64,000 bases of DNA, from positions 32,001-96,000 of IMG/VR virus record IMGVR_UViG_3300044681_000369; one strand, 5' to 3'. Every line of letters starts with the position of its first letter. The stretch's first letter is position 1. The notes under the pieces are model-generated. The model saw only the letters and a program-made list of their open reading frames with translations, made no database searches and had not been told where the DNA came from. A program made the translations under genes and the position numbers. Positions 29,882 to 58,300 of the stretch are shown here, piece by piece. This DNA is from a virus.

Positions 29882-29889
29882 TATTTATA
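29882..29889 (-). promoter_or_regulatory. Late promoter for gp23
   Basis: TATAAATA; AAGGAG SD downstream. Confidence 0.85.
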
Positions 29890-31115: not shown

Positions 31116-31123
31116 TATTTATA
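31116..31123 (-). promoter_or_regulatory. Late promoter for gp22
   Basis: TATAAATA. Confidence 0.8.
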
Positions 31124-36667: not shown

Positions 36668-36675
36668 TATTTATA
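36668..36675 (-). promoter_or_regulatory. Late promoter for gp18
   Basis: TATAAATA. Confidence 0.8.
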
Positions 36676-41283: not shown

Positions 41284-41291
41284 TATTTATA
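41284..41291 (-). promoter_or_regulatory. Late promoter for gp13
   Basis: TATAAATA. Confidence 0.8.
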
Positions 41292-46139: not shown

Positions 46140-46352
46140 TTAAAATGTGCCGCCATCTACGCGGGTTATTGTTTGCTCGTCCAGGGATTTTGCTTCCCAC
46201 TTCTTTGTTGTAGCATTATAAACTAAAGTGTCACCTTCACCTACATCGTCAATAACAACGTCCTTAAGAGACGAAACCAACACAGATGACTTTGTACTAA
46301 CGACACTTGTATTTATATTTTTTGTTAATGGAACGGTGACTTTAATTGCCAT
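46140..46352 (-). CDS. Small fibre adaptor ending VDGGTF
   Basis: L.DV...G.TLVYN....KW motif; C-term DGGTF. Confidence 0.7.
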   Translation of the reverse strand: MAIKVTVPLTKNINTSVVSTKSSVLVSSLKDVVIDDVGEGDTLVYNATTKKWEAKSLDEQTITRVDGGTF

Positions 46353-46681
46353 TATCTGGTAACCTCCGGATTAACAACTATGATGCCTTCTAACACACGC
46401 ATAGTCTCGCCATTTCCAGTAATTTCAACATCATAAACATATCTGCCGGCTTTTACTGCACCGGACTCGCTTGCAGATAACGAAATAATAACTTCACCAT
46501 CTAAAGGTGAAGATATTGTTGCATTCAAATCGATATAAGTATTAGTATAATACGACCGACGCATTTGAGCGGCAGCAGTATAATCAGACAAGTCCAACGG
46601 TTCGTCAGTCTGATCATTAACATTGAGTGAAGCGTTAAATGTACTTCCTTGATCAATGTAAAGATTTTTGATTGTAGCCAT
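46352..46681 (-). CDS. Conserved T4-like virion structural protein (BppU-N-like adaptor)
   Basis: NLYIDQGSTF, LDL..Y...AQMR.SY, GRYVYDVEI, RVLEG...V.PEVT. Confidence 0.75.
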   Translation of the reverse strand: MATIKNLYIDQGSTFNASLNVNDQTDEPLDLSDYTAAAQMRRSYYTNTYIDLNATISSPLDGEVIISLSASESGAVKAGRYVYDVEITGNGETMRVLEGIIVVNPEVTR

Positions 46682-46690
46682 TAGGGACCT

Positions 46691-46721
46691 TATAAATTAT
46701 ATGGTGTTTGAGTTATTTATA
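46691..46721. promoter_or_regulatory. Overlapping bidirectional late promoters
   Basis: Minus-strand TATAAATA at 46714-46721; plus-strand TATAAATT (7/8 match) at 46691-46698 upstream of the GT cluster. Confidence 0.55.
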
Positions 46722-46735
46722 ATTGGGAAAATATC

Positions 46736-47422
46736 ATGAAGACCATTTTAATGCTAAAATATGGCACAAAATACTCTAAAATAGATGTTGATAGAATTAT
46801 TTCTGCCACCGGCGGAAAGTATCATTATGCTTGTATAACTGATGATCCAGATCTAGACCCTAGAGTCCAGATAATCCCTATTCCAGATGATATAGACGGA
46901 ACATTCCGCAAGATTTGGATGTACAGTCTGGAAAATCTGGGTGATATACTGTATTTAGACTTGGACGTTCGTATACAAAAAGATATCGATCACCTATGGA
47001 AATATATTGACAATACACCAACAATAGTGTATACTTATTGGAAAGATGTGGGTTTTGTAGATCAACCGCATAGTGGTTACAGTATGCAGTATCTAAGCAA
47101 CTACAACTCTAGTGCAGTCCTCTGGAAATCTGGATCTCCTGACGCTAAAATTATATGGGAAAAATTTTCCGAAGACCCAGATTACTATCAAATTAAGTAT
47201 TGGGGAGACGATAGATTTCTTTGGCACGAAGGATTCAAATTTAAATGGTTTCCAAAAGGCGAGTTCTACTCTTTTCTATATGGAGCAGACTTCTATGTTC
47301 CAGAGTTGAAGACATGTGATCGATATCGACCAGAATATACAATAGCACTATTAAACGGATTGGACTTATACCCGGAGCACGACAAATTATATGATGATCT
47401 TTCTAACAATAAAATGGGGTAA
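46736..47422 (+). CDS. GT-A fold glycosyltransferase-like protein, paralog 1
   Basis: KYG.KY, CITDD, LYLDLDV, NSSAVLW, GDD.F. Confidence 0.75.
   Translation: MKTILMLKYGTKYSKIDVDRIISATGGKYHYACITDDPDLDPRVQIIPIPDDIDGTFRKIWMYSLENLGDILYLDLDVRIQKDIDHLWKYIDNTPTIVYTYWKDVGFVDQPHSGYSMQYLSNYNSSAVLWKSGSPDAKIIWEKFSEDPDYYQIKYWGDDRFLWHEGFKFKWFPKGEFYSFLYGADFYVPELKTCDRYRPEYTIALLNGLDLYPEHDKLYDDLSNNKMG
47007..47035 (+). promoter_or_regulatory. Internal sigma70-type promoter
   Basis: TTGACA-17-TATACT inside GT paralog 1. Confidence 0.45.
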
Positions 47423-48167
47423 GAAATACCCAGCCAAGTATGTAAACAATCTATACAACATGGTAAAGAGAAACTATGTTGGAGACTTTAGATTTGTATG
47501 TTACACGGATGATCCTCAACGAATCAATAAAGAAATTGAAGTCGTTCCTATTCCAGATGACGGACTACTTCATCCAAAATACTACTTTGGTAAAGAAGAT
47601 TATTGCTTTGACCGAGCAAAATTCCTAGTATTCAACTCTGAAGAGTGGCTTGAAAATGTGTCTTTCGTGGACACATTTTGCTACTTCGATCTGGATGTTG
47701 TAATTCAAGGCGACATTAGCATTATCGATGATCTGGCACAAAAGCCCAGACTAATTCATTGCTTTTGGCAAAAACCAGGCTACGACAAAGATGATAGATT
47801 TTTTATCGATACTCGAGGAACATACTACAACTCAAGTATGATGCTTTGGTCTTATCGTCAATGCAGTCATATATACTACGATGTCTTCGAAAACAGAGAC
47901 ATCATTTTTAAGACCTTCTTCAAAGGCTCAGACAACTATCACTACTGGAGACAAAAGAACTTCTGGAAAAATATTCCAGAAACTTGGTGTTATTCTTGGA
48001 ACAGAGGTCGATATTATCCAGAAGATGTAGAAGCATTTAAGTTTAGACCAGATGCCGCAATCTGTTTATTCAATACGGATAATGTTCCAGATCCTGTGTC
48101 AAAAACTCACACAGAGTTAGACAAGTGTAAAGACAAAAACATCAAAAAATTATGGACGGCAAAATGA
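47391..48167 (+). CDS. GT-A fold glycosyltransferase-like protein, paralog 2
   Basis: KWG.KY...YVN.L, F.CYTDD, YFDLDVVI, NSSMMLW. Confidence 0.78.
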   Translation: MMIFLTIKWGKKYPAKYVNNLYNMVKRNYVGDFRFVCYTDDPQRINKEIEVVPIPDDGLLHPKYYFGKEDYCFDRAKFLVFNSEEWLENVSFVDTFCYFDLDVVIQGDISIIDDLAQKPRLIHCFWQKPGYDKDDRFFIDTRGTYYNSSMMLWSYRQCSHIYYDVFENRDIIFKTFFKGSDNYHYWRQKNFWKNIPETWCYSWNRGRYYPEDVEAFKFRPDAAICLFNTDNVPDPVSKTHTELDKCKDKNIKKLWTAK

Positions 48168-48991
48168 GAGTTAATTATATCTGTTGCAAATGGGGAACAA
48201 AATATGGTCCCGAGTTTGTCAATCGACTAAATCGGATGGCTAGACTAAACACGCCAGACAAATATGATGTACATTTCTATTGTTATACCGATGATGCTAA
48301 GGGACTAGACGAGAATATTACTCATATTGATTTTCCAGATATTCCAGAAATTCACCCTAAGTATTGGTTTGGATCTGATAACTTCAAGTATGGTATGGCT
48401 CGTTGCTGGGACAGACCAAAAACGATGATATTCAACACTCACAATTTTGCTCCAGACAAACCTACTGGCAAATTTATCTTTTTTGATTTGGACGTAATCA
48501 TCCAAAGTGATCTAACTCCGATAATTGAGTATGATTATGATAATCCTCGAAAGTTGCGCTCTTGGTGGCAAGATCCAAGACCTATGAAGACTAGACAATT
48601 CAAACTCAGTCACGGAGCATACACAAATGGCTCTTGTATGGCATGGATGGATGATCAGACTGAATGTATCTGGCAAGATGTTTTAGAAAATCAAGAGCGT
48701 ATATGGTTTACGTTCACAGATGGAACAGATAACTATCACAGTTGGCGTTGGGGAGATTTTAGACCTGACGGCAAACCACCTTTATGGAAACATTTTCCAA
48801 AAGAATTTGCGTACTCATATAACAGAGGAAGAGATTGGGATTCTAATGACCTAGAAGTAGGTATATATAGAAAAGATGCTATTATTTGTGTGTTCAATGT
48901 GGACTTGCTCCCATTCCAAGATAATAGTCGTGGTAAGGTAAAACAAGCATCGCTAGTTGATCCAGACCTATTAGCGCATTGGGATATATAA
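48164..48991 (+). CDS. GT-A fold glycosyltransferase-like protein, paralog 3
   Basis: KWGTKY, FYCYTDD, FFDLDVII, NGSCMAW. Confidence 0.78.
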   Translation: MRVNYICCKWGTKYGPEFVNRLNRMARLNTPDKYDVHFYCYTDDAKGLDENITHIDFPDIPEIHPKYWFGSDNFKYGMARCWDRPKTMIFNTHNFAPDKPTGKFIFFDLDVIIQSDLTPIIEYDYDNPRKLRSWWQDPRPMKTRQFKLSHGAYTNGSCMAWMDDQTECIWQDVLENQERIWFTFTDGTDNYHSWRWGDFRPDGKPPLWKHFPKEFAYSYNRGRDWDSNDLEVGIYRKDAIICVFNVDLLPFQDNSRGKVKQASLVDPDLLAHWDI

Positions 48992-48992
48992 A

Positions 48993-49676
48993 ATGATTAA
49001 CATTTATACAGTAAAGTGGGGACAGAAGTATGGTCCCGAAGCAGTAAACGCAATTCATGACCAATGTAAAAAATACATTACCGAAGAATTTGATTTTTAT
49101 TGCTTGACAGAATATCCTCACGATTTAAATCCGGATATTCTTGTTATTGATTTCCCAAAAGGAAATTACTATGAGAAATGGTGGAACAAACTCCATCTAT
49201 TTGACCCAAACGTTGTTTCTCAAAAAGGCGAAAAGTTATTTTTCGATTTGGATGTGCAGATACAATCGAATATTGATTGTATTGTAAACTACGATCCCGG
49301 GGATAAACTTACCTTTGTTAGAACATGCTGGCACAATTTGAAAAAAATGAAGCGAGATGTTAAAGATATTCCTTGGGCATATACTGAGCTAAACTCTTCC
49401 GTTTTACGCTGGAACGACATGTTTGACGGAAAGAAAATCACAAAGTTTGTTAAAGATTATCCTTCTCAAATGTTTTTCTACTATCGCGGTCTAGATAATC
49501 TTTTTGGTCATCAACGTGAAAGGCTGTTAAAGATTGATCATTTTCCAGACGGCTGGGTATACAGTTATAATAACGGCTATATATGGCCAACAGATGTGAG
49601 AAAGCACACCCTAAGAGAAGATCCGCTAATTTGTTTGTATGATTCTATGGAGCGACCAGAAGATGTTAAGCTATAA
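48993..49676 (+). CDS. GT-A fold glycosyltransferase-like protein, paralog 4
   Basis: KWGQKY, FYCLTE, WWNKL.LF, FFDLDV.I, NSSVL.W. Confidence 0.78.
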   Translation: MINIYTVKWGQKYGPEAVNAIHDQCKKYITEEFDFYCLTEYPHDLNPDILVIDFPKGNYYEKWWNKLHLFDPNVVSQKGEKLFFDLDVQIQSNIDCIVNYDPGDKLTFVRTCWHNLKKMKRDVKDIPWAYTELNSSVLRWNDMFDGKKITKFVKDYPSQMFFYYRGLDNLFGHQRERLLKIDHFPDGWVYSYNNGYIWPTDVRKHTLREDPLICLYDSMERPEDVKL

Positions 49677-50319
49677 CTTTTTGAATAATTATCGAAATTG
49701 GGGCGATGGCCTCGATAAGATTAGCCACGAAATGCCTTGGAAACATGAAGACTTTAGAAAGTCTTTGAATCCAAATACTATGGAAGCCGCAATCTGGTTG
49801 GTAGAAGAACTAAAGCCACTTTTGCCTAAAAATAAAGGACTAGATATTACTGTTCTTAATTCCTGGCTTGGTTTTCCTTTAGTTCCACTTCTTTGTGAAA
49901 ATCTTTCAATAACTAAAATCAACCTTATTGATGTTGATAATGATGCACTTGAGTTATCCAAAGTTTTTAATAGGTATTATGTCGAACAGGGTATTGATTT
50001 AAATCATATTAATTGGGATATACCTTTTGCATATCATGATATTAATGCCCTTGAAACAGATGTTGTCATCTCTATGTGTGCAGAAACCATGTATCCACTT
50101 AGAGAAATGACCACCGCAAACAAAAAGTGTATCTTTGCATGTCAATCTTCAAACGTGTTTAAAGAAATGTATGGCATAAATTGTGTGCCTACAATAGAAG
50201 CACACATTGAAAATGTAGGTATTAAGACTGCAAAGTATACCGGAGAGATTAAGCAGTTTTATTACAGCTTTGATGGTAAAACCGAATTTGATCGTTTTAT
50301 GGCAATAGGAACAAAATAA
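49663..50319 (+). CDS. Class I SAM-methyltransferase-like protein (degenerate motif I)
   Basis: ITVLNSWLG...INLIDVD...A...SK; DVVI..C.E.M pattern of Rossmann-fold MTases. Confidence 0.5.
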   Translation: MLSYNFLNNYRNWGDGLDKISHEMPWKHEDFRKSLNPNTMEAAIWLVEELKPLLPKNKGLDITVLNSWLGFPLVPLLCENLSITKINLIDVDNDALELSKVFNRYYVEQGIDLNHINWDIPFAYHDINALETDVVISMCAETMYPLREMTTANKKCIFACQSSNVFKEMYGINCVPTIEAHIENVGIKTAKYTGEIKQFYYSFDGKTEFDRFMAIGTK

Positions 50320-50320
50320 C

Positions 50321-51259
50321 ATGGGCAGAGTAAGAATTGTTGCACCACCTCCAGAAAACTTTATTCCTGTTCCGCTTGAGCAGACTCACGTATCCATTGA
50401 TGTAAACAACGATGGAGTAATTGATGTGAAAGATGAGATTGAATTAAAGCAAGACGAAGAATCTAGACTAAAACTAGAAGAAGAGATCAAAAGAAAGGAT
50501 GAAATTGCAAAGCAAATTCATCAAGACTTGCTAAAGAAAAAGAAGTTGGATGAAAAAAAGAAACTCCGGGCTGAAAAAGCGGCAACAAAAACTATATTGG
50601 CAACCAGAGAAAACTCTCAGCTTAAAGCAATTCTAAAGAAGAAAGATATTCAGATTGAAGAATTGCTCACAAAAATCTCGTCAATCGAAAGTTCTATTTC
50701 AGAAACTGCCTTAAAGCAAGAAGGCGCAATTGATCTAATGCGCAAAGAAATCTCTCTAATGAGAGAACAGAAGCTGGCAGCCGAAAAGGCTAGAGATGAA
50801 ACACTAATGAAATACCGTGAGCAATCTGTCGGACAATCTCAATTGAGAACCAAAGAATCTGCCAGAATTGTAGAACTAGAAACTGAACTAAAAGAAACCA
50901 AAGCAAAAATTCAAGTGGCTAGAGAAGAGGCATTACTGATCTTTAGAGAAGAACAGAGTCGAAAAAAAGAAACTCAGATCCGAGCCGCACAAGATTTGAA
51001 GATACAAAACATCAAGTCATCGTCAACCTGGTGGTCAAATTTTGTAGCTTTTGTAAAGCGCAAAAAGATTGAGTTGTCTATGGCAGGAATTACAAATTAT
51101 GAGGCGGCAGTTATTGTCCGAACAAAATTTGCAATTCCAAAAATGTTAGATGACATTGAGAGAATGCATGAGCAACTGGCAATCTTGGAAGAAATGATTG
51201 CTATGCTTGAAAAGAATAAGTCTAAGTCTCAGAAAGAGAACCAAAGTCCTGCCCAGTAA
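50321..51259 (+). CDS. Long coiled-coil protein with EF-hand-like loop
   Basis: DVNNDGVIDVKD; ~190-aa E/K/Q-rich helix; WWSNFVAFVKRKK amphipathic segment. Confidence 0.65.
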   Translation: MGRVRIVAPPPENFIPVPLEQTHVSIDVNNDGVIDVKDEIELKQDEESRLKLEEEIKRKDEIAKQIHQDLLKKKKLDEKKKLRAEKAATKTILATRENSQLKAILKKKDIQIEELLTKISSIESSISETALKQEGAIDLMRKEISLMREQKLAAEKARDETLMKYREQSVGQSQLRTKESARIVELETELKETKAKIQVAREEALLIFREEQSRKKETQIRAAQDLKIQNIKSSSTWWSNFVAFVKRKKIELSMAGITNYEAAVIVRTKFAIPKMLDDIERMHEQLAILEEMIAMLEKNKSKSQKENQSPAQ

Positions 51260-51878
51260 TATCTTCAATCATCATTTTCCAGAAACTCTCATCTGGAATA
51301 ACATAGCCTAATGTAATTCTTTTACTCTTGGAACCGGCACAGTGATACCACACTTTGTCGGTTTCACTTCTTCTGCCAAAATAGCCCACTTTAACTGACC
51401 ATCCTTTAGGATCCAAAAGAGTTACCATTTCTTTGGTAATAGGATCACGATACCTAAAATAACCAGCTTCAGCTTCTGGGTTGTATGTTAAAAGAATGTT
51501 ATATCCAGAAGCATTCCAGTTTGTGTGCCAGCCCATAAATCCGCCTTCTGGATAATAGACATGTACCGCGTTTGTCTTTGCACCCAAGAACGAGATTAAT
51601 TCTCTATTCAATAGACGTTGCTTTTCTCTGTGTGCTTCTGGTATACCTGGAGTTAAACTAATATCACAACAATATGCGACTTCAGGAAATCCAACGTGAT
51701 CTCCATCTTTTTTAACTATATGATCTAGGTACTCTTTGTTAGTTGCAGATTCCATAGTATGTCCATGGACTCTATCTGGTTCTTTTAGCTTTGCGTGATC
51801 CGTCTGAGAGAAAAACCAATCTGTATAAGGAGTAACGATATCTAAAAGCTCATCGCTAATTGTATTTGTAAACTTCAT
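51222..51878 (-). CDS. 2OG-Fe(II) oxygenase / cupin-like protein
   Basis: YPEGGFMGWHTN...WYHCAG...RITLG (HxN...H...R arrangement). Confidence 0.6.
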   Translation of the reverse strand: MKFTNTISDELLDIVTPYTDWFFSQTDHAKLKEPDRVHGHTMESATNKEYLDHIVKKDGDHVGFPEVAYCCDISLTPGIPEAHREKQRLLNRELISFLGAKTNAVHVYYPEGGFMGWHTNWNASGYNILLTYNPEAEAGYFRYRDPITKEMVTLLDPKGWSVKVGYFGRRSETDKVWYHCAGSKSKRITLGYVIPDESFWKMMIEDITGQDFGSLSET

Positions 51879-51881
51879 GTA

Positions 51882-52604
51882 TTATGCGTTCCTTATGGAC
51901 GGCGGCAAAGTATAGTGATGAATAATTTTAGGTTGACCTTTTAATTCTTCTTCTTTGTATCCGATAACAAAGTTCCAACGTGCGTCTGGATCAGGAAATC
52001 TTCCAGTCTTAACTCCCATGTTACCGTAAGTCAATAGACGCCACATTGTAAAGGTGTCCCATTCCAGTGCTTCTTTTGGATAATGTTCGTGATCGTATCC
52101 AGGTTCCTGTTGCTTTAGATACTCACCCCACCAAGCACTCATTAAATTGATTGTTTTTGGATTATGTCTGTAAACAAATAGTCCACAATGCTCTGTCATC
52201 TCTTCTGTGTTTGACAGCTTTGTGATTGCCGCGTTATATGGACGATTTGCTGTAAAGATAATATCAACGTTTTTTGGAATTTGATCGAAAATTGTTGTAA
52301 TATCTTCATGCACAATTTCAGTATCGCAATCCAAATATGCCGTTATATCATATGGAGTTTTGTCTAATGCCCAAAGTTTTGCCCGATGGTGTCTAGGAAC
52401 ACCATCGGTAATGATGTTCTCAAAAATTTCATAGTCTTCATCCTCTACCCACTCTTCATGCGTGAATAGAGTAATTTTAGCTTCAGGAAAATAATCTAAA
52501 AGAGATAACGCTGAATTCTTTGCGGCTAGATAGTAGCCTCTACGAAGAGATGCCACATAAAGAAATCCCTTTTTTACAATATTACCATCATTCTTCTGTC
52601 GCAT
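51882..52604 (-). CDS. GT-A (GT8-like) nucleotide-diphospho-sugar transferase
   Basis: GFLYVA, SA.SL, KL.AL..TPYD.T.YLDCD, GLFVY, RWN, I.HH. Confidence 0.75.
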   Translation of the reverse strand: MRQKNDGNIVKKGFLYVASLRRGYYLAAKNSALSLLDYFPEAKITLFTHEEWVEDEDYEIFENIITDGVPRHHRAKLWALDKTPYDITAYLDCDTEIVHEDITTIFDQIPKNVDIIFTANRPYNAAITKLSNTEEMTEHCGLFVYRHNPKTINLMSAWWGEYLKQQEPGYDHEHYPKEALEWDTFTMWRLLTYGNMGVKTGRFPDPDARWNFVIGYKEEELKGQPKIIHHYTLPPSIRNA

Positions 52605-53055
52605 TGTCTTCAGCCTGAATCAACATTACTGTATATGCCAAAACTTCGAATGAGTTTTTAGCTCTACGAATTTTAGATTTCAAAGTTTTATTCTTAGACT
52701 GTTTGACTACTGGAATTTCAAAAGCATCCAATTTTGCTTCAAATAGGGCTTCATCTTTACGTCTTTGTTCATCAACTTTGCTACGCTCAATTCTTTCCCT
52801 TACTTCACGATGTCTACGCTCTTCTCTTTGACGAGTGTTTGCATCAATTTCTTCTTCTGTAAACGCCTTCATTATGGCGTCATAGTCCGGATTATTTCCG
52901 CCTTCTCCAGACACAGATGCAGGTAGGCTTTTACCAGTATCTGGATAATACATAATAACCATTACCTGCTTCTGAGCCTTGTTTAGCCAGAAGGGTTCTT
53001 TATATTGTTTTGGAGTTTCCTTTTCAGGAGAGATTTCTACTTCCACTTCAATCAC
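52588..53055 (-). CDS. Hypothetical protein, possible fibre-assembly chaperone
   Basis: Immediately downstream of the needle fibre gene; helical C-terminus. Confidence 0.55.
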   Translation of the reverse strand: MIEVEVEISPEKETPKQYKEPFWLNKAQKQVMVIMYYPDTGKSLPASVSGEGGNNPDYDAIMKAFTEEEIDANTRQREERRHREVRERIERSKVDEQRRKDEALFEAKLDAFEIPVVKQSKNKTLKSKIRRAKNSFEVLAYTVMLIQAEDNATEE

Positions 53056-53093: not shown

Positions 53094-53127
53094 GCCTGGA
53101 GGTGACCCCGTAGAGTCACCTCCAAGC
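53094..53127 (-). other. 15-bp hairpin with C(UACG)G tetraloop
   Basis: GCTTGGAGGTGACTC-TACG-GGGTCACCTCCAGGC, 10 nt after the stop of 53138..54574. Confidence 0.75.
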
Positions 53128-53137
53128 ATTTTTCATC

Positions 53138-54574
53138 TTAAGCAGTTCTTACCCAAAGAGTTACTGTTGAGACAACATCTTTGTTTGAGACAATGGTGTC
53201 ACCTGCATATGTACCAGAGTAAGAACCTGAGTAAGTTCTTGAGCCAGCGTATGAGCCTGAATAAGTTCTTGAGCCAGAGTATGAGTTTGCATATGTGCCA
53301 GAGTAAGTTCTGCTACCCGCATAGTTTGCGGAATAAGTTCTTGAGCCAGAGTATGAGTTTGCAAAGTACAGTGTGCCTGATGTATATGTGCCGGAATATG
53401 TTCTGCTACCAGCAAAGGAACTAGAAAAGTATTGTGTTGCAGAAACGTATGAGGCAGAATATGTTCTGGTTCCGGCAAAGTTACCGTTTAGATAACCACC
53501 GTAATATCTAGCATATGAGCCAGAATATGTTCTGCTACCAGAATATGGTCTTGTGCCGCCGTATGTTGAAACGTATGAGCCAGAATATGTTCTGCTGCCC
53601 GAATAGTTTCTAGTACCGGCATATGTATTTGCATATGAGTCAGAATATGTTCTGGATCCCGCATACTGAGAGGGGCTTGACGAATATGTTCTCGTACCAC
53701 CATAGGTATTTGTGTATGAAGAGCTATATGATCTTGTACCGCCATAGCTGGTGCTATAAGTTCTAGTGCCACCATATGAGCCAGTATAGTTTTGTGATAT
53801 AACCTGTTCTCTGGTATCCGAAGCGGATCCCATATTTACCCATGTTCCGCCAGAAGGCGTAGATGCTTGCAGTTTGTATGTGCCAACACCAGATGCAATA
53901 ATTCTATTTCTAAAATTAGCAGTCATCTGTTTAATTTCCGCATCAGTCATTGCAGTGACATTATTTCCGGAAACTTTTAGAGGACGCAAATCTGAATTAG
54001 CAGACGAAGTTGCGGCAGTTTTTTGCCAAATGTAGTAGGTTGTATTTCCGCCGTTTGCTACGTCTGTAATCGTATAGCGAGATGTCCATGTGCCACCGGT
54101 TGGTGCTGAACCAGAAAGACGATATTGACCGGCAGTATAATCGGATTCAGTTACCATAGCAGAAATAACTTTATCTAAGATATCTGTGCTAATTTCAGCG
54201 TTTGATAGTTGCTTAATACCACCAGAAACAGTGTCAAAACCAACTGTTCTAGCAGTAATTGATTCCGTGGCTGAAGATGTAACTTGCTTTGCGTAATATG
54301 TTACGGTTGCGGTGGAACCAGTTGCAGGGTGAGTACCAGTTGCTTCTGTTCGATCAGTATCAGAAAATGTACCGATAGATGTTCCAGTGAGTGCGTTTGC
54401 TGTATCAAGATTGATATCTGCTGGATTGCTGCCGTTACTTGCCGCTGTTGCAAAGTCTGTTGTAATTTGACTTGCAATATAGTTTTTTACTTCCGCGTCG
54501 GACATAACCTGCAAACCTTGAAAGTTTGCAGAGGTGATTGGCGAACCAGAAGCCTTTAGTCTTAATGGATTCAT
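53138..54574 (-). CDS. Virion fibre with C-terminal Tyr/Ser/Gly/Thr repeat needle
   Basis: Three M/L(S/T).AE(V/I) and two G.Y.L....P.GGTW repeats; ~190 aa of (xxxY)/(xGxRxY) units; ends TLWVRTA. Confidence 0.75.
   Translation of the reverse strand: MNPLRLKASGSPITSANFQGLQVMSDAEVKNYIASQITTDFATAASNGSNPADINLDTANALTGTSIGTFSDTDRTEATGTHPATGSTATVTYYAKQVTSSATESITARTVGFDTVSGGIKQLSNAEISTDILDKVISAMVTESDYTAGQYRLSGSAPTGGTWTSRYTITDVANGGNTTYYIWQKTAATSSANSDLRPLKVSGNNVTAMTDAEIKQMTANFRNRIIASGVGTYKLQASTPSGGTWVNMGSASDTREQVISQNYTGSYGGTRTYSTSYGGTRSYSSSYTNTYGGTRTYSSSPSQYAGSRTYSDSYANTYAGTRNYSGSRTYSGSYVSTYGGTRPYSGSRTYSGSYARYYGGYLNGNFAGTRTYSASYVSATQYFSSSFAGSRTYSGTYTSGTLYFANSYSGSRTYSANYAGSRTYSGTYANSYSGSRTYSGSYAGSRTYSGSYSGTYAGDTIVSNKDVVSTVTLWVRTA
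53205..53790 (-). repeat. Degenerate coding repeat RTYSGSYAGS
   Basis: Recurrent gagccagaatatgttctgct / gagtaagttcttgagcc units on the plus strand. Confidence 0.9.
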
Positions 54575-55070: not shown

Positions 55071-55301
55071 CTACTTACCTTGATTTTTTATGATTTGTTG
55101 CAACATTAATTTTATGTCGATCATTTCTTGCTTAACTGTATTTATATCGGTTTCAATCTCACGCATCCGATTTAGAATACTTTTTTGACTTTCTCGCTTT
55201 GCACGATATTGCTTTAGCCCTTCCAAATCATTAGAAATGATGGCCTTTGAATGCCCATCTCTTAGATATTTAGTTGTATCTTCCAAAGCATATTTCGACA
55301 T
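55071..55301 (-). CDS. Small coiled-coil hypothetical protein
   Basis: RD..SKAII..D...Y...R; C-terminal heptads; start trimmed to MSKY. Confidence 0.65.
   Translation of the reverse strand: MSKYALEDTTKYLRDGHSKAIISNDLEGLKQYRAKRESQKSILNRMREIETDINTVKQEMIDIKLMLQQIIKNQGK
55139..55146 (-). promoter_or_regulatory. Late promoter (intragenic) upstream of 54586..55068
   Basis: TATAAATA. Confidence 0.6.
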
Positions 55302-55305
55302 AAAA

Positions 55306-58300
55306 TTATACCTGTAGAGCAATTGCACGAAGTTCCCTGACTTTAGGAACAACGCACTGTTTGGTGGACAACATCACGATTTTAATCGCAAAAATCTTAT
55401 ACCCAGTGTATGTCACTCCGGCATCTGTATATTCATACACACCAGAACCATTCAAGACGCTTGCTGGTAAGTCATATGTGTATTCAGCATAACCAGTTGG
55501 TAACAATTCTGACGGAGGAGTTGTTTCCATCAGGACCCAATCTTTATCCTCAAATGCTTCTGGGTCAGCCTCGTGCTGTAGTCTTGCATATACCTTAACA
55601 TCTGTTCCAGATGGAAGATTATTTGTCAAGTAAACTCGCAGGTCTTCGGCTTCTTGTCCATCATCCAATACAACTCTTCTAGAAACATATTTCGATCTTG
55701 CAGATCCAAACCCGGTTTCTTCATCGGTGTCATCATTATTAATATCATTGGCTGTTGCTATCATAGAGCATTTTCTCAAATCAATTACTGGAGAAACAGT
55801 AGAGGTTTGAGTGTACATGCCAACTCTAATCTTAAATGACTTTTCTCCACCAAGATTTTCATATTCATTCGAGAATGATCTAATAGACGCATCATATAGC
55901 AATTCTTCAGGCTTGTCTGCTGTGAAGTTCTCAAAATCTGTACCGGCAGTAGTTTCTGTTCCGGTATTTTCCGTGGCAGAATATGACCAAACCATTCTGC
56001 ATGGTGTATGATTCATATGACCAACGTTTGCAGTGAGTGAATTGATTGCCTTATCTTCAACTTCTACAACTTCTCCGTAAGCGGTACCGTTACCAACAAC
56101 ATCGCTGGCAGAGAATGCGCCTGTTACAACATACAACTTGGCAACATTATACAATGTGTCATAAGTTTGGATTAAACCGGAATTTAATCTAACCGTTGCT
56201 GAGCCGTCTGTGCCACCAGAAATTGTACTGAATGAAATTGTTGGCGCACTTGTGTAGCCTGCTCCTGGATTTGTAACAGTAATGCTTGAAATTTGATTTG
56301 ATGAAACAACAACATCTACAGTTGCATCTGTTGTGGCTCCACCGCCAGACAGTGTAATTGAATGTGTGCCGTTTGTATATCCAGAACCGGCATCATCAAT
56401 AGTAAACGAGAACCCGTGAATAGATTCGCCCACATCAAAGTTTCCGCCTGTAAATTGATCAAAGCGGAGATAATCAATATCTTGAGTTTCCAGTTCGACC
56501 AAACCAACACTGTTGATATCAAAGTCTGCTCTGTTTAGCAGGAACTTCATGTCTTCTGCCTGGTGTGCTGTCCAAGTTCTATTGTTTGCTGAAGTGAATA
56601 GTACACCAACGCTTGGCTGTTCCGTAACTCTTGTTGTTGTGTTTACAACATTTTCACCCAACTCAGATACCCAAACTTCATAGTCTGGAGAGTTACCTTC
56701 AGGCAACAGAACATAGCAATATTCTGTATTGTTCTTTAGATAGACAGGAGAAGGGAATGTAAACCGAGTTCTTGCACCCGCATTGTCAGCGTCAACGTTA
56801 ACTTGCTCTGGTCTTAATGTTACTTCACCAAATGGTAGAATGTTATTTGAAGGATAACCATTCTGAACTTCTCTCAATTCTAATTTAATTGCGGCTGTAT
56901 CTGATTTTGTTCTAAAGAAAACATCAACCGATGTTGCATACATGCCAAAAGGCATATCTTCAACCATAAAGGTCTGAGAGATAGGATCAAAGCCTGGTGT
57001 AAAAGCAAGACCACAATTCCAGTTCCACTGCCAAGCGGTATCCCACCAGAGAGACAGTTCGTCTGCAATCCAAAAATCGTCCCAACAAGCTATGTTAGGA
57101 TTGGGATCCGGAACAGGAGCGGCAGTAGTTGTAGTTGGCGCCGCCGTTGTGGTGGTGGTGGTCGTAGTTGTTGGCGCCGCCGTTGTGGTGGTGGTCGTAG
57201 TTGTAGTGGTTGTAGTTGGCGCCGCCGTTGTGGTGGTCGTAGTTGTTGGCGCCGCCGTAGTTGTAGTTGTTGTTACTCTCGGAGTAGTGGTTTCCGGGTT
57301 AACAGTGGGAACTACAGGCTCATCCGGCGGCGATGGCGGAGGATAAATAATAGTTGTGTTAGTATTATTGACAGTTGTAGTATTATCAACATAGGTATTT
57401 TGAATATTTGTAGTGTTGTTTACTGTAGTATATGTGTTATTTACTACAGTGGTTTGAATACCAACTCTTCTCCCCTCAAGTCTATTGACTGTGGTTTGAG
57501 TATCATATGTAAGTCTAGTATCCGTAAGAGTGTTGGTTGCAATCTTAGCAACTCTAGTAGAAATTACGGTATCTTGAACATTTTGTGCTAAACCGTTTGC
57601 AGAAAATGTTTGACTACAAACTGTAGTTAAGAATTTTTCTCTATTTTGCTCATCATCAGCCAAACGGAAAATCTTTTCGCCAACTCTAAATTGTCCCTGT
57701 GGGATTCTAAATTGTCCCATGGCTCTACCTTCATCGTTAGTGATGATGGCATCACCCCAATCACCATCCGCATAAGATGATGCTTCGACTGAATTGGTAA
57801 AGTTCTGATTCCATGCGCCAGATACTGCAACTGGTCGGCAATGTTCTGACACTGCAATACCATCAAAGAAAGGATATATCCGTGTGTTAGGCTTCATTCT
57901 CTCTGCCTTAAACGTTACGGTTATACTTCTCATGAATGGAATGATTGAAGTATTTGTTACTCTGGCTCCAGTTCTCTGAGTTTGAGTTTCTGGTGTAACA
58001 CTAATTGAAATGCCCTGTCTTGTTTGACGCTGTTCAATTGTAGATGTTACAATTTGCATGTCTGTCTGGAATCCGGTATCGCCTCCACCATAAACGGCGC
58101 TTACCGCATCTGTGGTTTCTGTTGATACAACTCTACCAGTTCCTAAATCTTGCCAGTCGCCCCACTGAGTTCCCCAGGCATCTGCCATCTGTTCCCAGGC
58201 ATCATAGTTTCCATCAAAGTTTGCAGAAACATCGGGAAGAACGCTAGTATCTGTCCAGTTGTCAACCGGAGGATCAAGTTGCATATCACCAATATAATTG

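What the first reader, a model, noticed from the sequence alone, without database searches (positions are those of the whole stretch)
46736..52604. Convergent enzyme island within the fibre genes: a candidate virion glycosylation/modification system
Seen: the only plus-strand operon in 64 kb (four tandem paralogous DxD GT-A proteins, an MTase-like protein and a coiled-coil protein) converges on a fifth GT and a 2OG-Fe(II)-like gene that follow the Tyr/Ser/Thr needle fibre. The island shares a bidirectional late-promoter region with the fibre operon, and hydroxyl-rich targets flank it (YSG needle, poly-Thr tract). Known: some actinobacteriophages glycosylate capsid and tail proteins with their own GTs. 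Inference: an assembly line adding and tailoring glycans on fibres of a T4-like phage. Alternatives are DNA hypermodification or host-surface modification.
Basis: partly seen in the sequence, partly recalled or inferred. Interest (0 to 1): 0.8.

Follow-up and report, generated by a model that had tools for sequence, protein, structure and literature searches.

The report
Phage fibre-linked sugar-transferase gene island
An uncultured aquatic T4-like phage carries five sugar-transferase-like genes, a hydroxylase-like gene and a methyltransferase-like gene that always travel with one tyrosine-repeat fibre gene, so they probably decorate that fibre with sugars, though no chemistry has been shown.

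Summary
The gene content and layout are as described. Four tandem paralogues (26-28% identical, invariant D-L-D) fold as glycogenin/LARGE1/UGGT-type GT-A glycosyltransferases. The "MTase" is a class I SAM-fold protein. The "2OG" gene has a prolyl-hydroxylase-like fold, but its iron motif is a non-canonical H-x-N...H...R. The fifth GT is only probable, because it could not be folded.

The new evidence is comparative. In 160 viral contigs (19 lineages at 70% identity) and in cultured phage C48C1, one cassette recurs: Tyr-repeat protein, small protein, GT5, oxygenase, then a slot, then a tail-fibre-assembly-like gene. The slot holds 0, 1, 2 or 4 members of the GT1-4 family. In some lineages these lie co-directionally inside the fibre operon. 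In this clade they are inverted and joined by the MTase.

The poly-Thr tract is not conserved with the island. The genome record shows no hmC, TET or C5-MTase pathway, and the island proteins have no membrane segments.

Best reading (about 50%) is glycosylation, perhaps with hydroxylation, of the Tyr-repeat fibre. The main rival is the published view that such GTs remodel host LPS. The scan has flagged the same island in several other genomes, and follow-ups there reached compatible conclusions.

The parts
53138..54574 (-). Tyr/Ser/Thr/Gly/Arg repeat protein (fibB, 478 aa). N-terminal globular domain plus about 200 aa of G-S-R-T-Y-S-type repeats. Candidate substrate.
   Evidence: Translation. 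Composition is S17, T15, Y10, G11 %. The N-domain is homologous to the N-terminus of the 3347-aa Tyr-repeat protein of phage C48C1, which is 10.4% Tyr. Relatives occupy this position in 60/60 and 63/65 testable loci.
53097..53124 (.). 10-bp-stem G+C-rich hairpin between the repeat-protein gene and the enzyme genes. Possible attenuator or RNA-stability element.
   Evidence: No T-run follows it on the - strand.
52588..53055 (-). Small conserved charged protein (155 aa) of unknown function. Always the first gene after the Tyr-repeat gene.
   Evidence: 40% identical over 96 aa to the 153-aa C48C1 protein in the same position. Present in nearly all loci.
51882..52604 (-). GT5: probable GT-A glycosyltransferase (240 aa). 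Invariant R74, K76 and D92-x-D94. Start overlaps the preceding gene.
   Evidence: Alignments A5/A8. GT8-like local motif. Weak Pfam GT2 or Nucleotid_trans hits in 6 of 17 relatives. No PDB sequence hit. Not folded.
51222..51878 (-). OG: double-stranded beta-helix protein of the 2OG-oxygenase superfamily, prolyl-hydroxylase-like, with motif H118-x-N120...H179...R187.
   Evidence: AF2 pLDDT 92. Foldseek and VIA give Z about 10 to PHD2, P4H, PiuC and OGFOD1. Invariant residues.
50321..51259 (+). Charged, probably helical or coiled-coil protein (312 aa). Last gene of the + operon. Variable in length and dispensable across relatives.
   Evidence: Composition. Only 34-61% identity over parts, or absent, in relatives. 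Its 3' end overlaps the OG gene by 38 bp.
49639..50319 (+). MT: class I SAM-fold transferase-like protein (226 aa; an alternative start lies at residue 9).
   Evidence: Family profile A7 hits spermidine synthases at E 2e-6, and Methyltransf_25/31/12 in some members. Language-model neighbours are MTases. 26% identical to a 'putative methyltransferase' in the sugar island of Pelagibacter phage Mosig.
48993..49676 (+). GT4: GT8-like GT-A glycosyltransferase paralogue.
   Evidence: 31% identical (E 1e-15) to the single co-directional GT of locus L213.
48152..48991 (+). GT3: GT8-like GT-A paralogue. The most conserved gene of the island (72-83% identity across the clade).
47391..48167 (+). GT2: GT8-like GT-A paralogue.
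46736..47422 (+). GT1: GT8-like retaining-type GT-A glycosyltransferase (the modelled paralogue).
   Evidence: Pfam GT8 at 19.6 bits, below the 24.3 cut-off. PHROG 1962. AF2 pLDDT 94. Z 15.6 to LARGE1 and glycogenin.
46682..46735 (.). Divergent control region. TATAAATA on the - strand (46714-46721) lies 33 nt before the tfa-like gene. TATAAATT on the + strand (46691-46698) lies 38 nt before GT1.
46352..46681 (-). Tail-fibre-assembly-like protein (109 aa). The conserved downstream boundary of the cassette.
   Evidence: PHROG 1084 and 3304. 38% identical to the C48C1 gene annotated 'L-shaped tail fiber protein assembly'.
55139..55146 (-). TATAAATA late-type promoter motif upstream of the 160-aa gene, the repeat-protein gene and the co-directional enzyme genes.

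Best explanation
The island is the expanded form of an old, phage-specific cassette whose enzymes post-translationally modify the neighbouring Tyr/Ser/Thr/Arg-repeat fibre protein.

Proposed order of events:
1. The repeat protein is made from the late fibre operon together with a small partner protein, GT5 and the prolyl-hydroxylase-like protein.
2. GT5 attaches the first sugar to a side chain of the repeat (Tyr, Ser/Thr or Arg). The oxygenase-fold protein may first introduce a hydroxyl group.
3. The four GT8-like paralogues each add one further sugar, in a retaining manner, from host or phage-made NDP-sugars.
4. The SAM-fold enzyme caps or tailors the glycan.

The number of extra GTs in the slot (0, 1, 2 or 4) would set glycan length in different phage lineages.

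Shown here: the folds of GT1 and OG, the catalytic-type motifs, the paralogy, and the cassette's conservation and copy-number series.

Inferred: that the substrate is the repeat protein, the acceptor residue, the order of steps, and any activity at all.
For: 1. GT1-4 have a GT-A fold with an invariant DxD. Their top neighbours mostly act on proteins or protein-bound glycans: glycogenin, GlyE, Skp1 Gat1, UGGT and LARGE1.
2. Every homologue found falls nearest to GT1, GT2 or GT3 and is at least 45% identical to it, with one exception (P0101, 36% to GT3); none was nearest GT4. So at least three of the paralogues are old, separately kept lineages, not redundant copies.
3. OG is closest to protein prolyl hydroxylases.
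4. The cassette Tyr-repeat protein / small protein / GT5 / OG / slot / tfa-like gene is kept in 160 loci. That is 19 OG lineages at 70% identity, and 11 at 50%. It is also in cultured phage C48C1. A Tyr-rich ORF lies directly upstream in 123 of 125 testable loci.
5. GT1-4-family members fill the same slot in other lineages, on the same strand as the fibre genes. That places them in the late structural operon there.
6. Among 50,697 phage records, the repeat-protein N-domain and GT5 are found in C48C1 alone. OG is found in C48C1 plus one weak match in an uncultured phage record. The nearest cultured relatives (Melnitz, HTVC008M, Mosig) have none of the three.
7. Late-type TATAAATA motifs lie upstream of both fibre transcription units.
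8. The phage encodes three NDP-sugar epimerase/dehydratase-family genes elsewhere.
9. The one OG-family match found in a pattern scan of 185,579 species' genomes is the phage island itself, on a 6.5-kb contig within a MAG.
Against: - There are no chemical or proteomic data.
- Conserved gene order can be inherited without a functional link, and the loci are phylogenetically related.
- GT8 enzymes of bacteria are mostly LPS enzymes. LgtC scores within 1.5 Z of the best hits.
- The published reading for pelagimyophage GT8 genes is host O-chain modification (PMC7029224).
- OG has Asn where the iron-binding Asp/Glu should be. A distant OG-like domain with the same H-T-N motif is fused to a capsular-polysaccharide-synthesis domain. 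That hints at a carbohydrate rather than a protein substrate.
- GT5 and MT could not be folded.
- The + operon lacks a perfect late promoter.
- The enzymes are more conserved (GT3 72-83%) than the fibres (34-81%).
Confidence: 0.5

Rival explanations
1. Host envelope remodelling. The glycosyltransferases and the methyltransferase act in the infected cell on LPS core/O-chain or capsule precursors. This changes the cell surface, for example to block superinfection or to stop progeny from re-adsorbing. This is the published proposal for GT8 genes in the host-recognition cluster of pelagimyophages.
For: Zaragoza-Solas et al. 2020 (PMC7029224) found GT8 to be the commonest GT family in pelagimyophage host-recognition clusters and argued for O-chain modification. 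The cyanomyovirus literature reads such GTs the same way (PMC12801897). LgtC, an LOS galactosyltransferase, is among the structural neighbours (Z 14.1-14.4). An OG-like domain is fused to a capsular-polysaccharide-synthesis domain in P0466. The phage carries NDP-sugar epimerase/dehydratase genes. Pelagibacter phage Mosig has a different sugar-biosynthesis island, with an MT homologue, beside VrlC.
Against: - The enzymes keep a fixed position next to one particular repeat protein across 19 lineages, and in some lineages lie inside the late fibre operon.
- None of the eight proteins has a membrane segment or Gtr-type component (highest 19-residue hydropathy 1.47).
- The GT1-4 and OG families gave no hits attributable to cellular genomes.
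- The island is highly conserved while the surrounding receptor-binding genes diverge.
Confidence: 0.2
2. Another target, or no catalysis on the fibre. The cassette proteins could be assembly factors for the repeat fibre. They could modify other virion or host cytoplasmic proteins. They could make a free or lipid-linked oligosaccharide or small molecule used during infection.
For: The non-canonical H-x-N motif of OG. No invariant C-terminal His in the GT1-4 family, unlike classical GT8. Pfam scores below cut-off for all island proteins. The MT family is closest to aminopropyltransferases rather than to sugar O-methyltransferases. A tail-fibre-assembly-like gene closes the cassette.
Against: The DxD and G-x-D motifs in all four paralogues, D-x-D in GT5 and H...H...R in OG are invariant across distant lineages. 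That argues for catalysis. The stepwise variation in GT number (0/1/2/4) is typical of glycan elaboration.
Confidence: 0.2
3. DNA hypermodification. A methyltransferase, an oxygenase and glycosyltransferases together make glycosylated bases, as in T4 hmC glucosylation or the phage TET/5mC pathways.
For: The combination MTase + 2OG-type oxygenase + GTs resembles the gene content of TET-associated DNA hypermodification clusters (own knowledge). AlkB-family nucleic-acid oxygenases appear among OG's structural neighbours, slightly below the prolyl hydroxylases.
Against: The 141-kb record (86% complete) gives no match to thymidylate-synthase/dCMP-hydroxymethylase (PF00303), C5 DNA methylase (PF00145) or Tet_JBP (PF12851). 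The MT family shows no similarity to DNA MTases. The GTs are GT-A, whereas the T4 alpha/beta-glucosyltransferases are GT-B (own knowledge). The genes sit in the fibre module, and in other lineages in the late fibre operon.
Confidence: 0.03

Closest known systems
Virion glycosylation of mycobacteriophages by phage-encoded glycosyltransferases (Freeman et al. 2023, Cell Host Microbe; cited as ref. 61 in PMC12801897; the paper itself is not held, so details are from own knowledge)
   Same: Phage-encoded GT genes lie beside the structural genes, and the proposed targets are virion proteins.
   Different: Those are siphoviruses of Actinobacteria with one to a few GTs, and the glycans sit on capsid and tail-tube proteins. 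Here the phage is an aquatic T4-like myovirus. It has five GT-like genes, a hydroxylase-fold gene and a SAM-fold gene. The candidate substrate is a dedicated Tyr-repeat fibre. Nothing has been shown chemically.
Glycosyltransferase-rich host-recognition cluster of pelagimyophages and cyanomyophages (Zaragoza-Solas et al. 2020, PMC7029224)
   Same: Same kind of phage: the major capsid protein is 66-68% identical to those of Melnitz, HTVC008M and Mosig. Same genomic region, between VrlC and the neck genes. GT8-type enzymes were noted among the fibre genes.
   Different: That paper reads the GTs as host O-chain modifiers. It does not describe the fixed cassette with the Tyr-repeat protein, the oxygenase-fold gene or the GT copy-number series. 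The three cultured relatives lack this particular island.
Serine-rich-repeat adhesin glycosylation islands of Gram-positive bacteria (for example S. pneumoniae PsrP with GlyE and other GT8 enzymes; PDB 5gvv/5gvw)
   Same: A repetitive hydroxyl-rich fibrillar surface protein is encoded next to several GT8-type paralogues that extend its O-glycan stepwise. GlyE is a top structural neighbour of GT1 (Z 14.9).
   Different: That system is bacterial, starts with a GT-B pair (GtfA/B) and is exported by an accessory Sec system (own knowledge). None of these features is seen here.
Skp1 prolyl-hydroxylation/glycosylation pathway of Dictyostelium and Toxoplasma (PhyA prolyl 4-hydroxylase, then GTs ending with the GT8 enzyme Gat1; PDB 6t8m, 6mw5)
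   Same: The logic is a cytoplasmic PHD-type hydroxylase followed by sequential soluble GTs. Both DdPhyA (Z 9.9) and Gat1 (Z 14.6) are among the structural neighbours.
   Different: That system is eukaryotic, with a single Pro acceptor. The repeat protein here has almost no Pro (2%), and OG has H-x-N instead of H-x-D.
Chlorovirus PBCV-1 capsid glycosylation (A064R: two GT domains plus a methyltransferase domain) and Mimivirus L230 hydroxylase-glycosyltransferase (own knowledge)
   Same: Virus-encoded cytoplasmic GTs plus a methyltransferase or hydroxylase tailor the glycans of virion proteins.
   Different: Those are eukaryotic giant viruses with fused multidomain enzymes and no sequence relationship detected here. 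PBCV-1 prolyl hydroxylase (5c5t) is only a weak Foldseek neighbour of OG.

Membership tests
GT-A glycosyltransferases of the GT8/GT24 (retaining) type, for GT1-GT4 | GT-A Rossmann-like fold superposable on GT8 enzymes | tested here: met
   GT1 model has pLDDT 94. Z 14-15.6, rmsd 3.3-3.7 A, 190-210 of 228 residues aligned to glycogenin, LARGE1, UGGT, GlyE, Gat1 and LgtC.
GT-A glycosyltransferases of the GT8/GT24 (retaining) type, for GT1-GT4 | DxD metal/nucleotide-sugar motif after a hydrophobic strand | tested here: met
   D75-L-D77 is invariant in 58 family members.
GT-A glycosyltransferases of the GT8/GT24 (retaining) type, for GT1-GT4 | Match to the Pfam Glyco_transf_8 model above its gathering score | tested here: not met
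   GT1 scores 19.6 bits against a cut-off of 24.3. GT2-4 give no hit.
GT-A glycosyltransferases of the GT8/GT24 (retaining) type, for GT1-GT4 | C-terminal His as third metal ligand (as in LgtC and glycogenin; own knowledge) | tested here: inconclusive
   No invariant His is present in the family alignment. Structural equivalence was not examined.
GT-A glycosyltransferases of the GT8/GT24 (retaining) type, for GT1-GT4 | Sugar transfer from an NDP-sugar | not testable with these tools
   Needs an enzyme assay.
GT-A glycosyltransferase, for GT5 | GT-A fold and DxD | tested here: inconclusive
   D92-x-D94, R74 and K76 are invariant in 17 sequences down to 29% identity. A GT8-like local motif is present. 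Weak Pfam GT2 hits (5/17) and one Nucleotid_trans hit (1/17) appear. hhalign to the GT1-4 family is negative.
2-oxoglutarate/Fe(II) oxygenases, prolyl-hydroxylase-like, for OG | Double-stranded beta-helix core | tested here: met
   Model pLDDT 92. Z 9.5-10.5, about 150 residues aligned to PHD2, P. putida P4H, PiuC, OGFOD1 and Tpa1.
2-oxoglutarate/Fe(II) oxygenases, prolyl-hydroxylase-like, for OG | H-x-D/E...H iron-binding triad | tested here: not met
   The motif is H118-T-N120...H179. The Asn is invariant in 48 sequences and also present in the distant fusion protein P0466.
2-oxoglutarate/Fe(II) oxygenases, prolyl-hydroxylase-like, for OG | Basic residue binding the 2OG C5 carboxylate, 8-10 residues after the distal His | tested here: met
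   R187 is invariant, eight residues after H179, at the start of the next strand. The assignment rests on position only.
Class I SAM-dependent methyltransferase fold, for MT | Sequence-profile similarity to SAM-binding Rossmann-fold transferases, with an acidic residue at the end of strand 2 | tested here: met
   Profile A7 against PDB hits spermidine synthases at E 2e-6 over motifs I-IV. Methyltransf_25/31/12 match in some members. D98 and D100 are near-invariant. The Gly-rich loop is degenerate (N-S-W-L-G). Not folded.
T4-type or TET-type DNA base glycosylation | Pathway making the hydroxymethyl base: dCMP/dUMP hydroxymethylase, or C5-MTase plus TET/JBP | tested here: not met
   No PF00303, PF00145 or PF12851 match in the 141-kb record, which is 86% complete.
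Phage seroconversion (Gtr-type O-antigen glucosylation) | Membrane proteins GtrA, GtrB and Gtr(type) | tested here: not met
   No hydrophobic segment in any island protein. The highest 19-residue Kyte-Doolittle mean is 1.47.
Phage virion glycosylation system (mycobacteriophage type) | Phage GT genes adjoining structural genes | tested here: met
Phage virion glycosylation system (mycobacteriophage type) | Glycans demonstrated on virion proteins | not testable with these tools
   Needs glycoproteomics or glycan staining.

The most novel reading that the evidence does not exclude
A widespread, phage-specific modification system of aquatic T4-like phages builds an oligosaccharide on a tyrosine/arginine/serine-repeat beta-hairpin fibre. 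An atypical (His-x-Asn) prolyl-hydroxylase-fold enzyme and a divergent GT-A start the chain, possibly on tyrosine as glycogenin does. A variable number (0-4) of GT8-like paralogues plus a SAM-fold enzyme set its length and cap. Glycan complexity would then be a heritable, tunable trait of the fibre.
Probability: 0.3. Interest if true: 0.8.

Novelty: new variant of a known kind. Interest (0 to 1): 0.62.

Why it matters
Virion glycosylation by phage-encoded enzymes has been demonstrated only in a few actinobacteriophages. In marine and freshwater T4-like phages, which are among the most abundant viruses on Earth, glycosyltransferase genes have been read as host-surface or DNA modifiers.

If this cassette glycosylates a fibre, several things follow:
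- A large share of "LPS-related auxiliary genes" in pelagimyophage-like genomes would have to be reinterpreted.
- A sugar coat would become a factor in adsorption, host range, grazing and particle stickiness of aquatic phages.
- A compact enzyme/substrate set would be available for testing. The minimal form is four genes in a cultured phage, C48C1.
- That set includes an unusual His-x-Asn oxygenase-fold enzyme and a possibly tyrosine-directed GT.

Tried and rejected
- DNA and protein searches of 50,697 phage records with the island, GT1 and GT3 found nothing.
- Pfam, NCBIfam and PHROG scans of the island proteins gave only sub-threshold hits.
- Ortholog profiles of OG, MT and GT5 against PDB sequences gave nothing. 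Only the wider MT family profile gave a hit.
- hhalign of GT5 against the GT1-4 family was negative, so GT5 is not a fifth paralogue of that family.
- The poly-Thr/Pro stalk of the VrlC-like protein was considered as a substrate (an extensin- or mucin-like idea). It was rejected as a conserved partner, because only one of 18 long relatives has anything similar.
- A sigma-70 reading of the + strand promoter (TTGATT-N17-TATAAA) was considered. The -10 hexamer lacks the conserved final T, and the scan tool did not list it. The timing of the + operon remains open.
- A search for fused OG forms gave one protein only.
- The search for related loci on genome contigs with the GT family alignment failed, because there was no conserved stretch.
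- The Freeman 2023 paper is not held.

Full report
CONTEXT. The window is bases 32001-96000 of a 140,970-bp IMG/VR virus record. It is a T4-like myovirus. PHROG assignments cover the major head protein, portal, sheath, terminase, baseplate wedge and others. The major capsid protein is 66-68% identical to those of Methylophilales phage Melnitz and Pelagibacter phages HTVC008M and Mosig. Almost all genes are on the - strand. The record has only two multi-gene + strand operons. One is the island. The other holds a TnsA-like endonuclease gene, baseplate and tail genes and a HAD-like phosphatase gene.

OBSERVATION. The + operon is GT1 46736-47422, GT2 47391-48167, GT3 48152-48991, GT4 48993-49676, MT 49639-50319 and CC 50321-51259. 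Its genes overlap or abut, which suggests translational coupling. On the - strand, the Tyr-repeat protein (53138-54574) is followed by a hairpin, a 155-aa protein (52588-53055), GT5 (51882-52604) and OG (51222-51878). The 3' end of OG overlaps the end of CC by 38 bp, with no terminator between them.

THE FOUR PARALOGUES.
- GT1-4 are 26-28% identical to one another and share invariant motifs, including D-L-D.
- Sequence libraries give only sub-threshold hits: Pfam GT8 at 19.6 bits against a cut-off of 24.3, and PHROG 1962 "glycosyltransferase".
- An AlphaFold model of GT1, built on 58 family members, has pLDDT 94.
- Its neighbours are GT8/GT24 retaining GT-A enzymes: LARGE1 Xyl-T domain, glycogenin, UGGT, GlyE, Skp1 Gat1 and LgtC. 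Z is 14-15.6 over about 200 residues. These scores are effectively tied, so the fold does not say whether the acceptor is a protein-bound glycan or LPS.
- Of the 120 homologues listed from a 5.8-billion-protein search, each was nearest to GT1, GT2 or GT3. All but one were at least 45% identical to that nearest paralogue. None was nearest GT4. So at least three of the paralogues are old and separately maintained.
- Every homologue that carries a name is annotated as hypothetical, and all come from metagenomes.

THE OTHER ENZYMES.
- OG folds with pLDDT 92 into a double-stranded beta-helix. It is closest to protein prolyl hydroxylases (PHD2, P. putida P4H, Dictyostelium PhyA, OGFOD1/Tpa1) and PiuC, at Z about 10. 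AlkB-type enzymes score just below.
- The expected H-x-D...H...R motif reads H118-T-N120...H179...R187 in OG. The Asn is invariant in 48 sequences. The same H-T-N occurs in a distant OG-like domain fused to a PF10364 "capsular polysaccharide synthesis" domain. OG therefore has the fold but fails one defining feature of the family. Its chemistry is open.
- MT gave nothing on its own. A profile of 56 distant relatives, taken from an exhaustive HMMER search (289 cluster representatives), matches spermidine synthases at E 2e-6 over the SAM-binding core. Some members match class I methyltransferase Pfams. There is no similarity to DNA methyltransferases.
- GT5 has an invariant D-x-D and a GT8-like K-L-W...Y-x-D-x-D-T motif. 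Only weak GT2-type Pfam hits appear, and only in relatives. It shows no profile similarity to GT1-4. It is a probable GT-A glycosyltransferase, not a proven one.
- CC is a highly charged protein. It varies in length and is missing in several relatives.

COMPARATIVE GENOMICS, THE MAIN NEW RESULT.
- Fifty-seven IMG/VR loci found with GT1, and 80 found with an OG profile, all carry the whole block in the same order wherever the contig reaches. GT3 (72-83%) and GT5 (61-82%) are the most conserved. The flanking fibre proteins diverge more (34-81%).
- Among 50,697 phage records, only C48C1 (Kyanoviridae) has GT5, and it has the best OG match. The only other OG match is a weak hit in an uncultured phage record.
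- In C48C1 a 3347-aa protein, a 153-aa protein, GT5, OG and an "L-shaped tail fiber protein assembly" gene follow one another on one strand. No GT1-4 or MT is present.
- The small protein and the assembly-like protein are homologous to the window's.
- The N-terminus of the giant protein matches the N-domain of the window's repeat protein. The rest of the giant protein is a Tyr/Arg/Ser/Thr repeat with 10.4% Tyr.
- Using C48C1's OG as a query gave 80 further loci, down to 37% identity. Together the 160 OG-derived loci form 19 OG lineages at 70% identity, or 11 at 50%.
- GT5 and OG are adjacent in 156 of the 160. In the other four the contig starts at OG, so the GT5 position is not covered.
- An ORF with at least 13 Tyr per 100 residues ends directly upstream of the small protein in 60/60 and 63/65 testable loci.
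- The slot between OG and the assembly-like gene is empty in nine lineages. It holds one GT1-4-family member in three lineages (31% identical to GT4, E 1e-15). It holds two in one lineage, in each case on the same strand as the fibre genes. It holds four plus MT, inverted, in the three lineages of this clade.
- A pattern scan of one genome from each of 185,579 prokaryote species found the OG family once. That hit is the phage island itself, on a 6.5-kb contig binned into a MAG.

WHAT THIS DOES TO THE HYPOTHESES.
For the Tyr-repeat protein it is not independent, and the association is very tight.
- For the poly-Thr/AAP stalk of the VrlC-like protein the criterion is met. The stalk is real, but it is absent from most relatives that keep the island.
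- DNA modification is unlikely. The record has no thymidylate-synthase/hydroxymethylase family, C5 methylase or TET/JBP match. The GTs are GT-A. In other lineages the genes lie in the late fibre operon.
- Host-surface remodelling is the published reading for GT8 genes in this genomic region of pelagimyophages (PMC7029224) and for GTs of cyanomyoviruses (PMC12801897). It cannot be excluded. It does not explain the fixed partnership with one repeat protein, the lack of membrane components, or the failure to find cellular homologues.
- The phage also encodes three NDP-sugar epimerase/dehydratase-family proteins elsewhere. That fits either reading.

REGULATION.
- TATAAATA occurs 16 times in the window, all on the - strand, against 4 expected. 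In the whole record it occurs 22 times on the - strand and once on the + strand.
- Copies lie shortly upstream of the capsid, sheath and fibre genes. One is 33 nt before the assembly-like gene, and one lies upstream of the repeat-protein unit.
- The + operon has only TATAAATT, 38 nt before GT1. The 7-mer is conserved in most relatives, but the eighth base is never A, and the motif overlaps the ribosome-binding region of the divergent gene.
- The other + operon, which is structural, uses AATAAATA and CATAAATA.
- Late expression of the inverted operon is therefore plausible but not shown.

VERDICT. The most likely function (about 0.5) is glycosylation, perhaps with hydroxylation and methylation, of the Tyr-repeat fibre protein, with GT copy number setting glycan length. 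In mechanism it resembles mycobacteriophage virion glycosylation, serine-rich-repeat adhesin glycosylation and the Skp1 hydroxylation/glycosylation pathway. It is not a sequence-level member of any described system. I class it as a new variant of a known kind.

EARLIER SCAN NOTES. Notes consulted after my own analysis show that the scan has flagged the same island in several other genomes. Follow-ups there independently concluded that GT-like enzymes travel with a Tyr-rich repeat protein. This agrees with my result but is not independent experimental evidence.

Noticed in passing
window, 16 sites (e.g. 29882-29889, 31116-31123, 36668-36675, 41284-41291, 46714-46721, 55139-55146); whole record 23 sites: TATAAATA is strongly enriched and strand-biased: 16 in the window against 4 expected, all on the - strand, and 22 of 23 in the record. 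It sits 20-70 nt upstream of capsid, sheath and fibre genes. This looks like a T4-type late promoter. The pelagimyophage paper PMC7029224 reported that late promoters could not be detected in this group.
   Followed up: partly
G000:C1:111200-116883 (locus L063 701-6384), outside the window: The only other + strand operon of the genome. It holds a TnsA-like endonuclease, a gp19-like protein, a T4 baseplate protein, an 854-aa glycine-zipper protein and a HAD-type phosphatase-like protein. AATAAATA and CATAAATA motifs lie upstream, and a divergent - strand TATAAATA is also present.
   Followed up: partly
window about 57100-57340 (-), residues about 1378-1460 of the 2055-aa VrlC-like protein: A mucin- or extensin-like stalk: a P-P-P-S-P-P segment followed by five Thr-run/A-A-P repeats (Thr runs of 4-12), then a Trp/Cys-rich segment. 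It is a variable insert. Only one of 18 long related loci (L096) has a comparable Pro/Thr-rich tract.
   Followed up: partly
protein P0466 (535 aa, JGI metagenome, 5-kb contig): A distant OG-like domain with the same H-T-N...H...R-type motif is fused to a PF10364 NKWYS 'putative capsular polysaccharide synthesis' domain. This hints that this His-x-Asn branch of the oxygenase fold may act on carbohydrates.
   Followed up: partly
window 53097-53124: A perfect 10-bp G+C-rich hairpin lies between the repeat-protein gene and the downstream enzyme genes. On the - strand it is not followed by a T-run. It could lower expression of the enzymes relative to the structural protein, or stabilise the upstream mRNA.
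   Followed up: no
G000:C1:21451-22074, 130381-131079, 138555-139190 (all outside the window): Three genes of the NAD-dependent epimerase/dehydratase family (PF01370, E 2e-30 to 8e-51). The phage probably makes or alters its own nucleotide sugars. No nucleotidyltransferase (PF00483) was found.
   Followed up: no
window 51222-51259: The convergent genes CC (+) and OG (-) overlap by 38 bp at their 3' ends. In relatives lacking CC, MT and OG overlap by 4 bp. The two transcription units must therefore read into each other.
   Followed up: no
locus L062 (Pelagibacter phage Mosig MT647606, 60728-75219): Mosig carries, beside its VrlC gene, a different + strand sugar-tailoring island. It holds an aminotransferase, a carbamoyltransferase, radical-SAM-like proteins, nitroreductase-like proteins and an epimerase. 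It also includes a methyltransferase 26% identical to MT.
   Followed up: no
locus L230 (CALPIE020000128.1, 6.5 kb): A contig carrying this phage island (GT1-4, MT, OG, GT5 at 54-79% identity) is binned in a MAG labelled Bifidobacterium breve. This is almost certainly a binning contaminant.
   Followed up: yes
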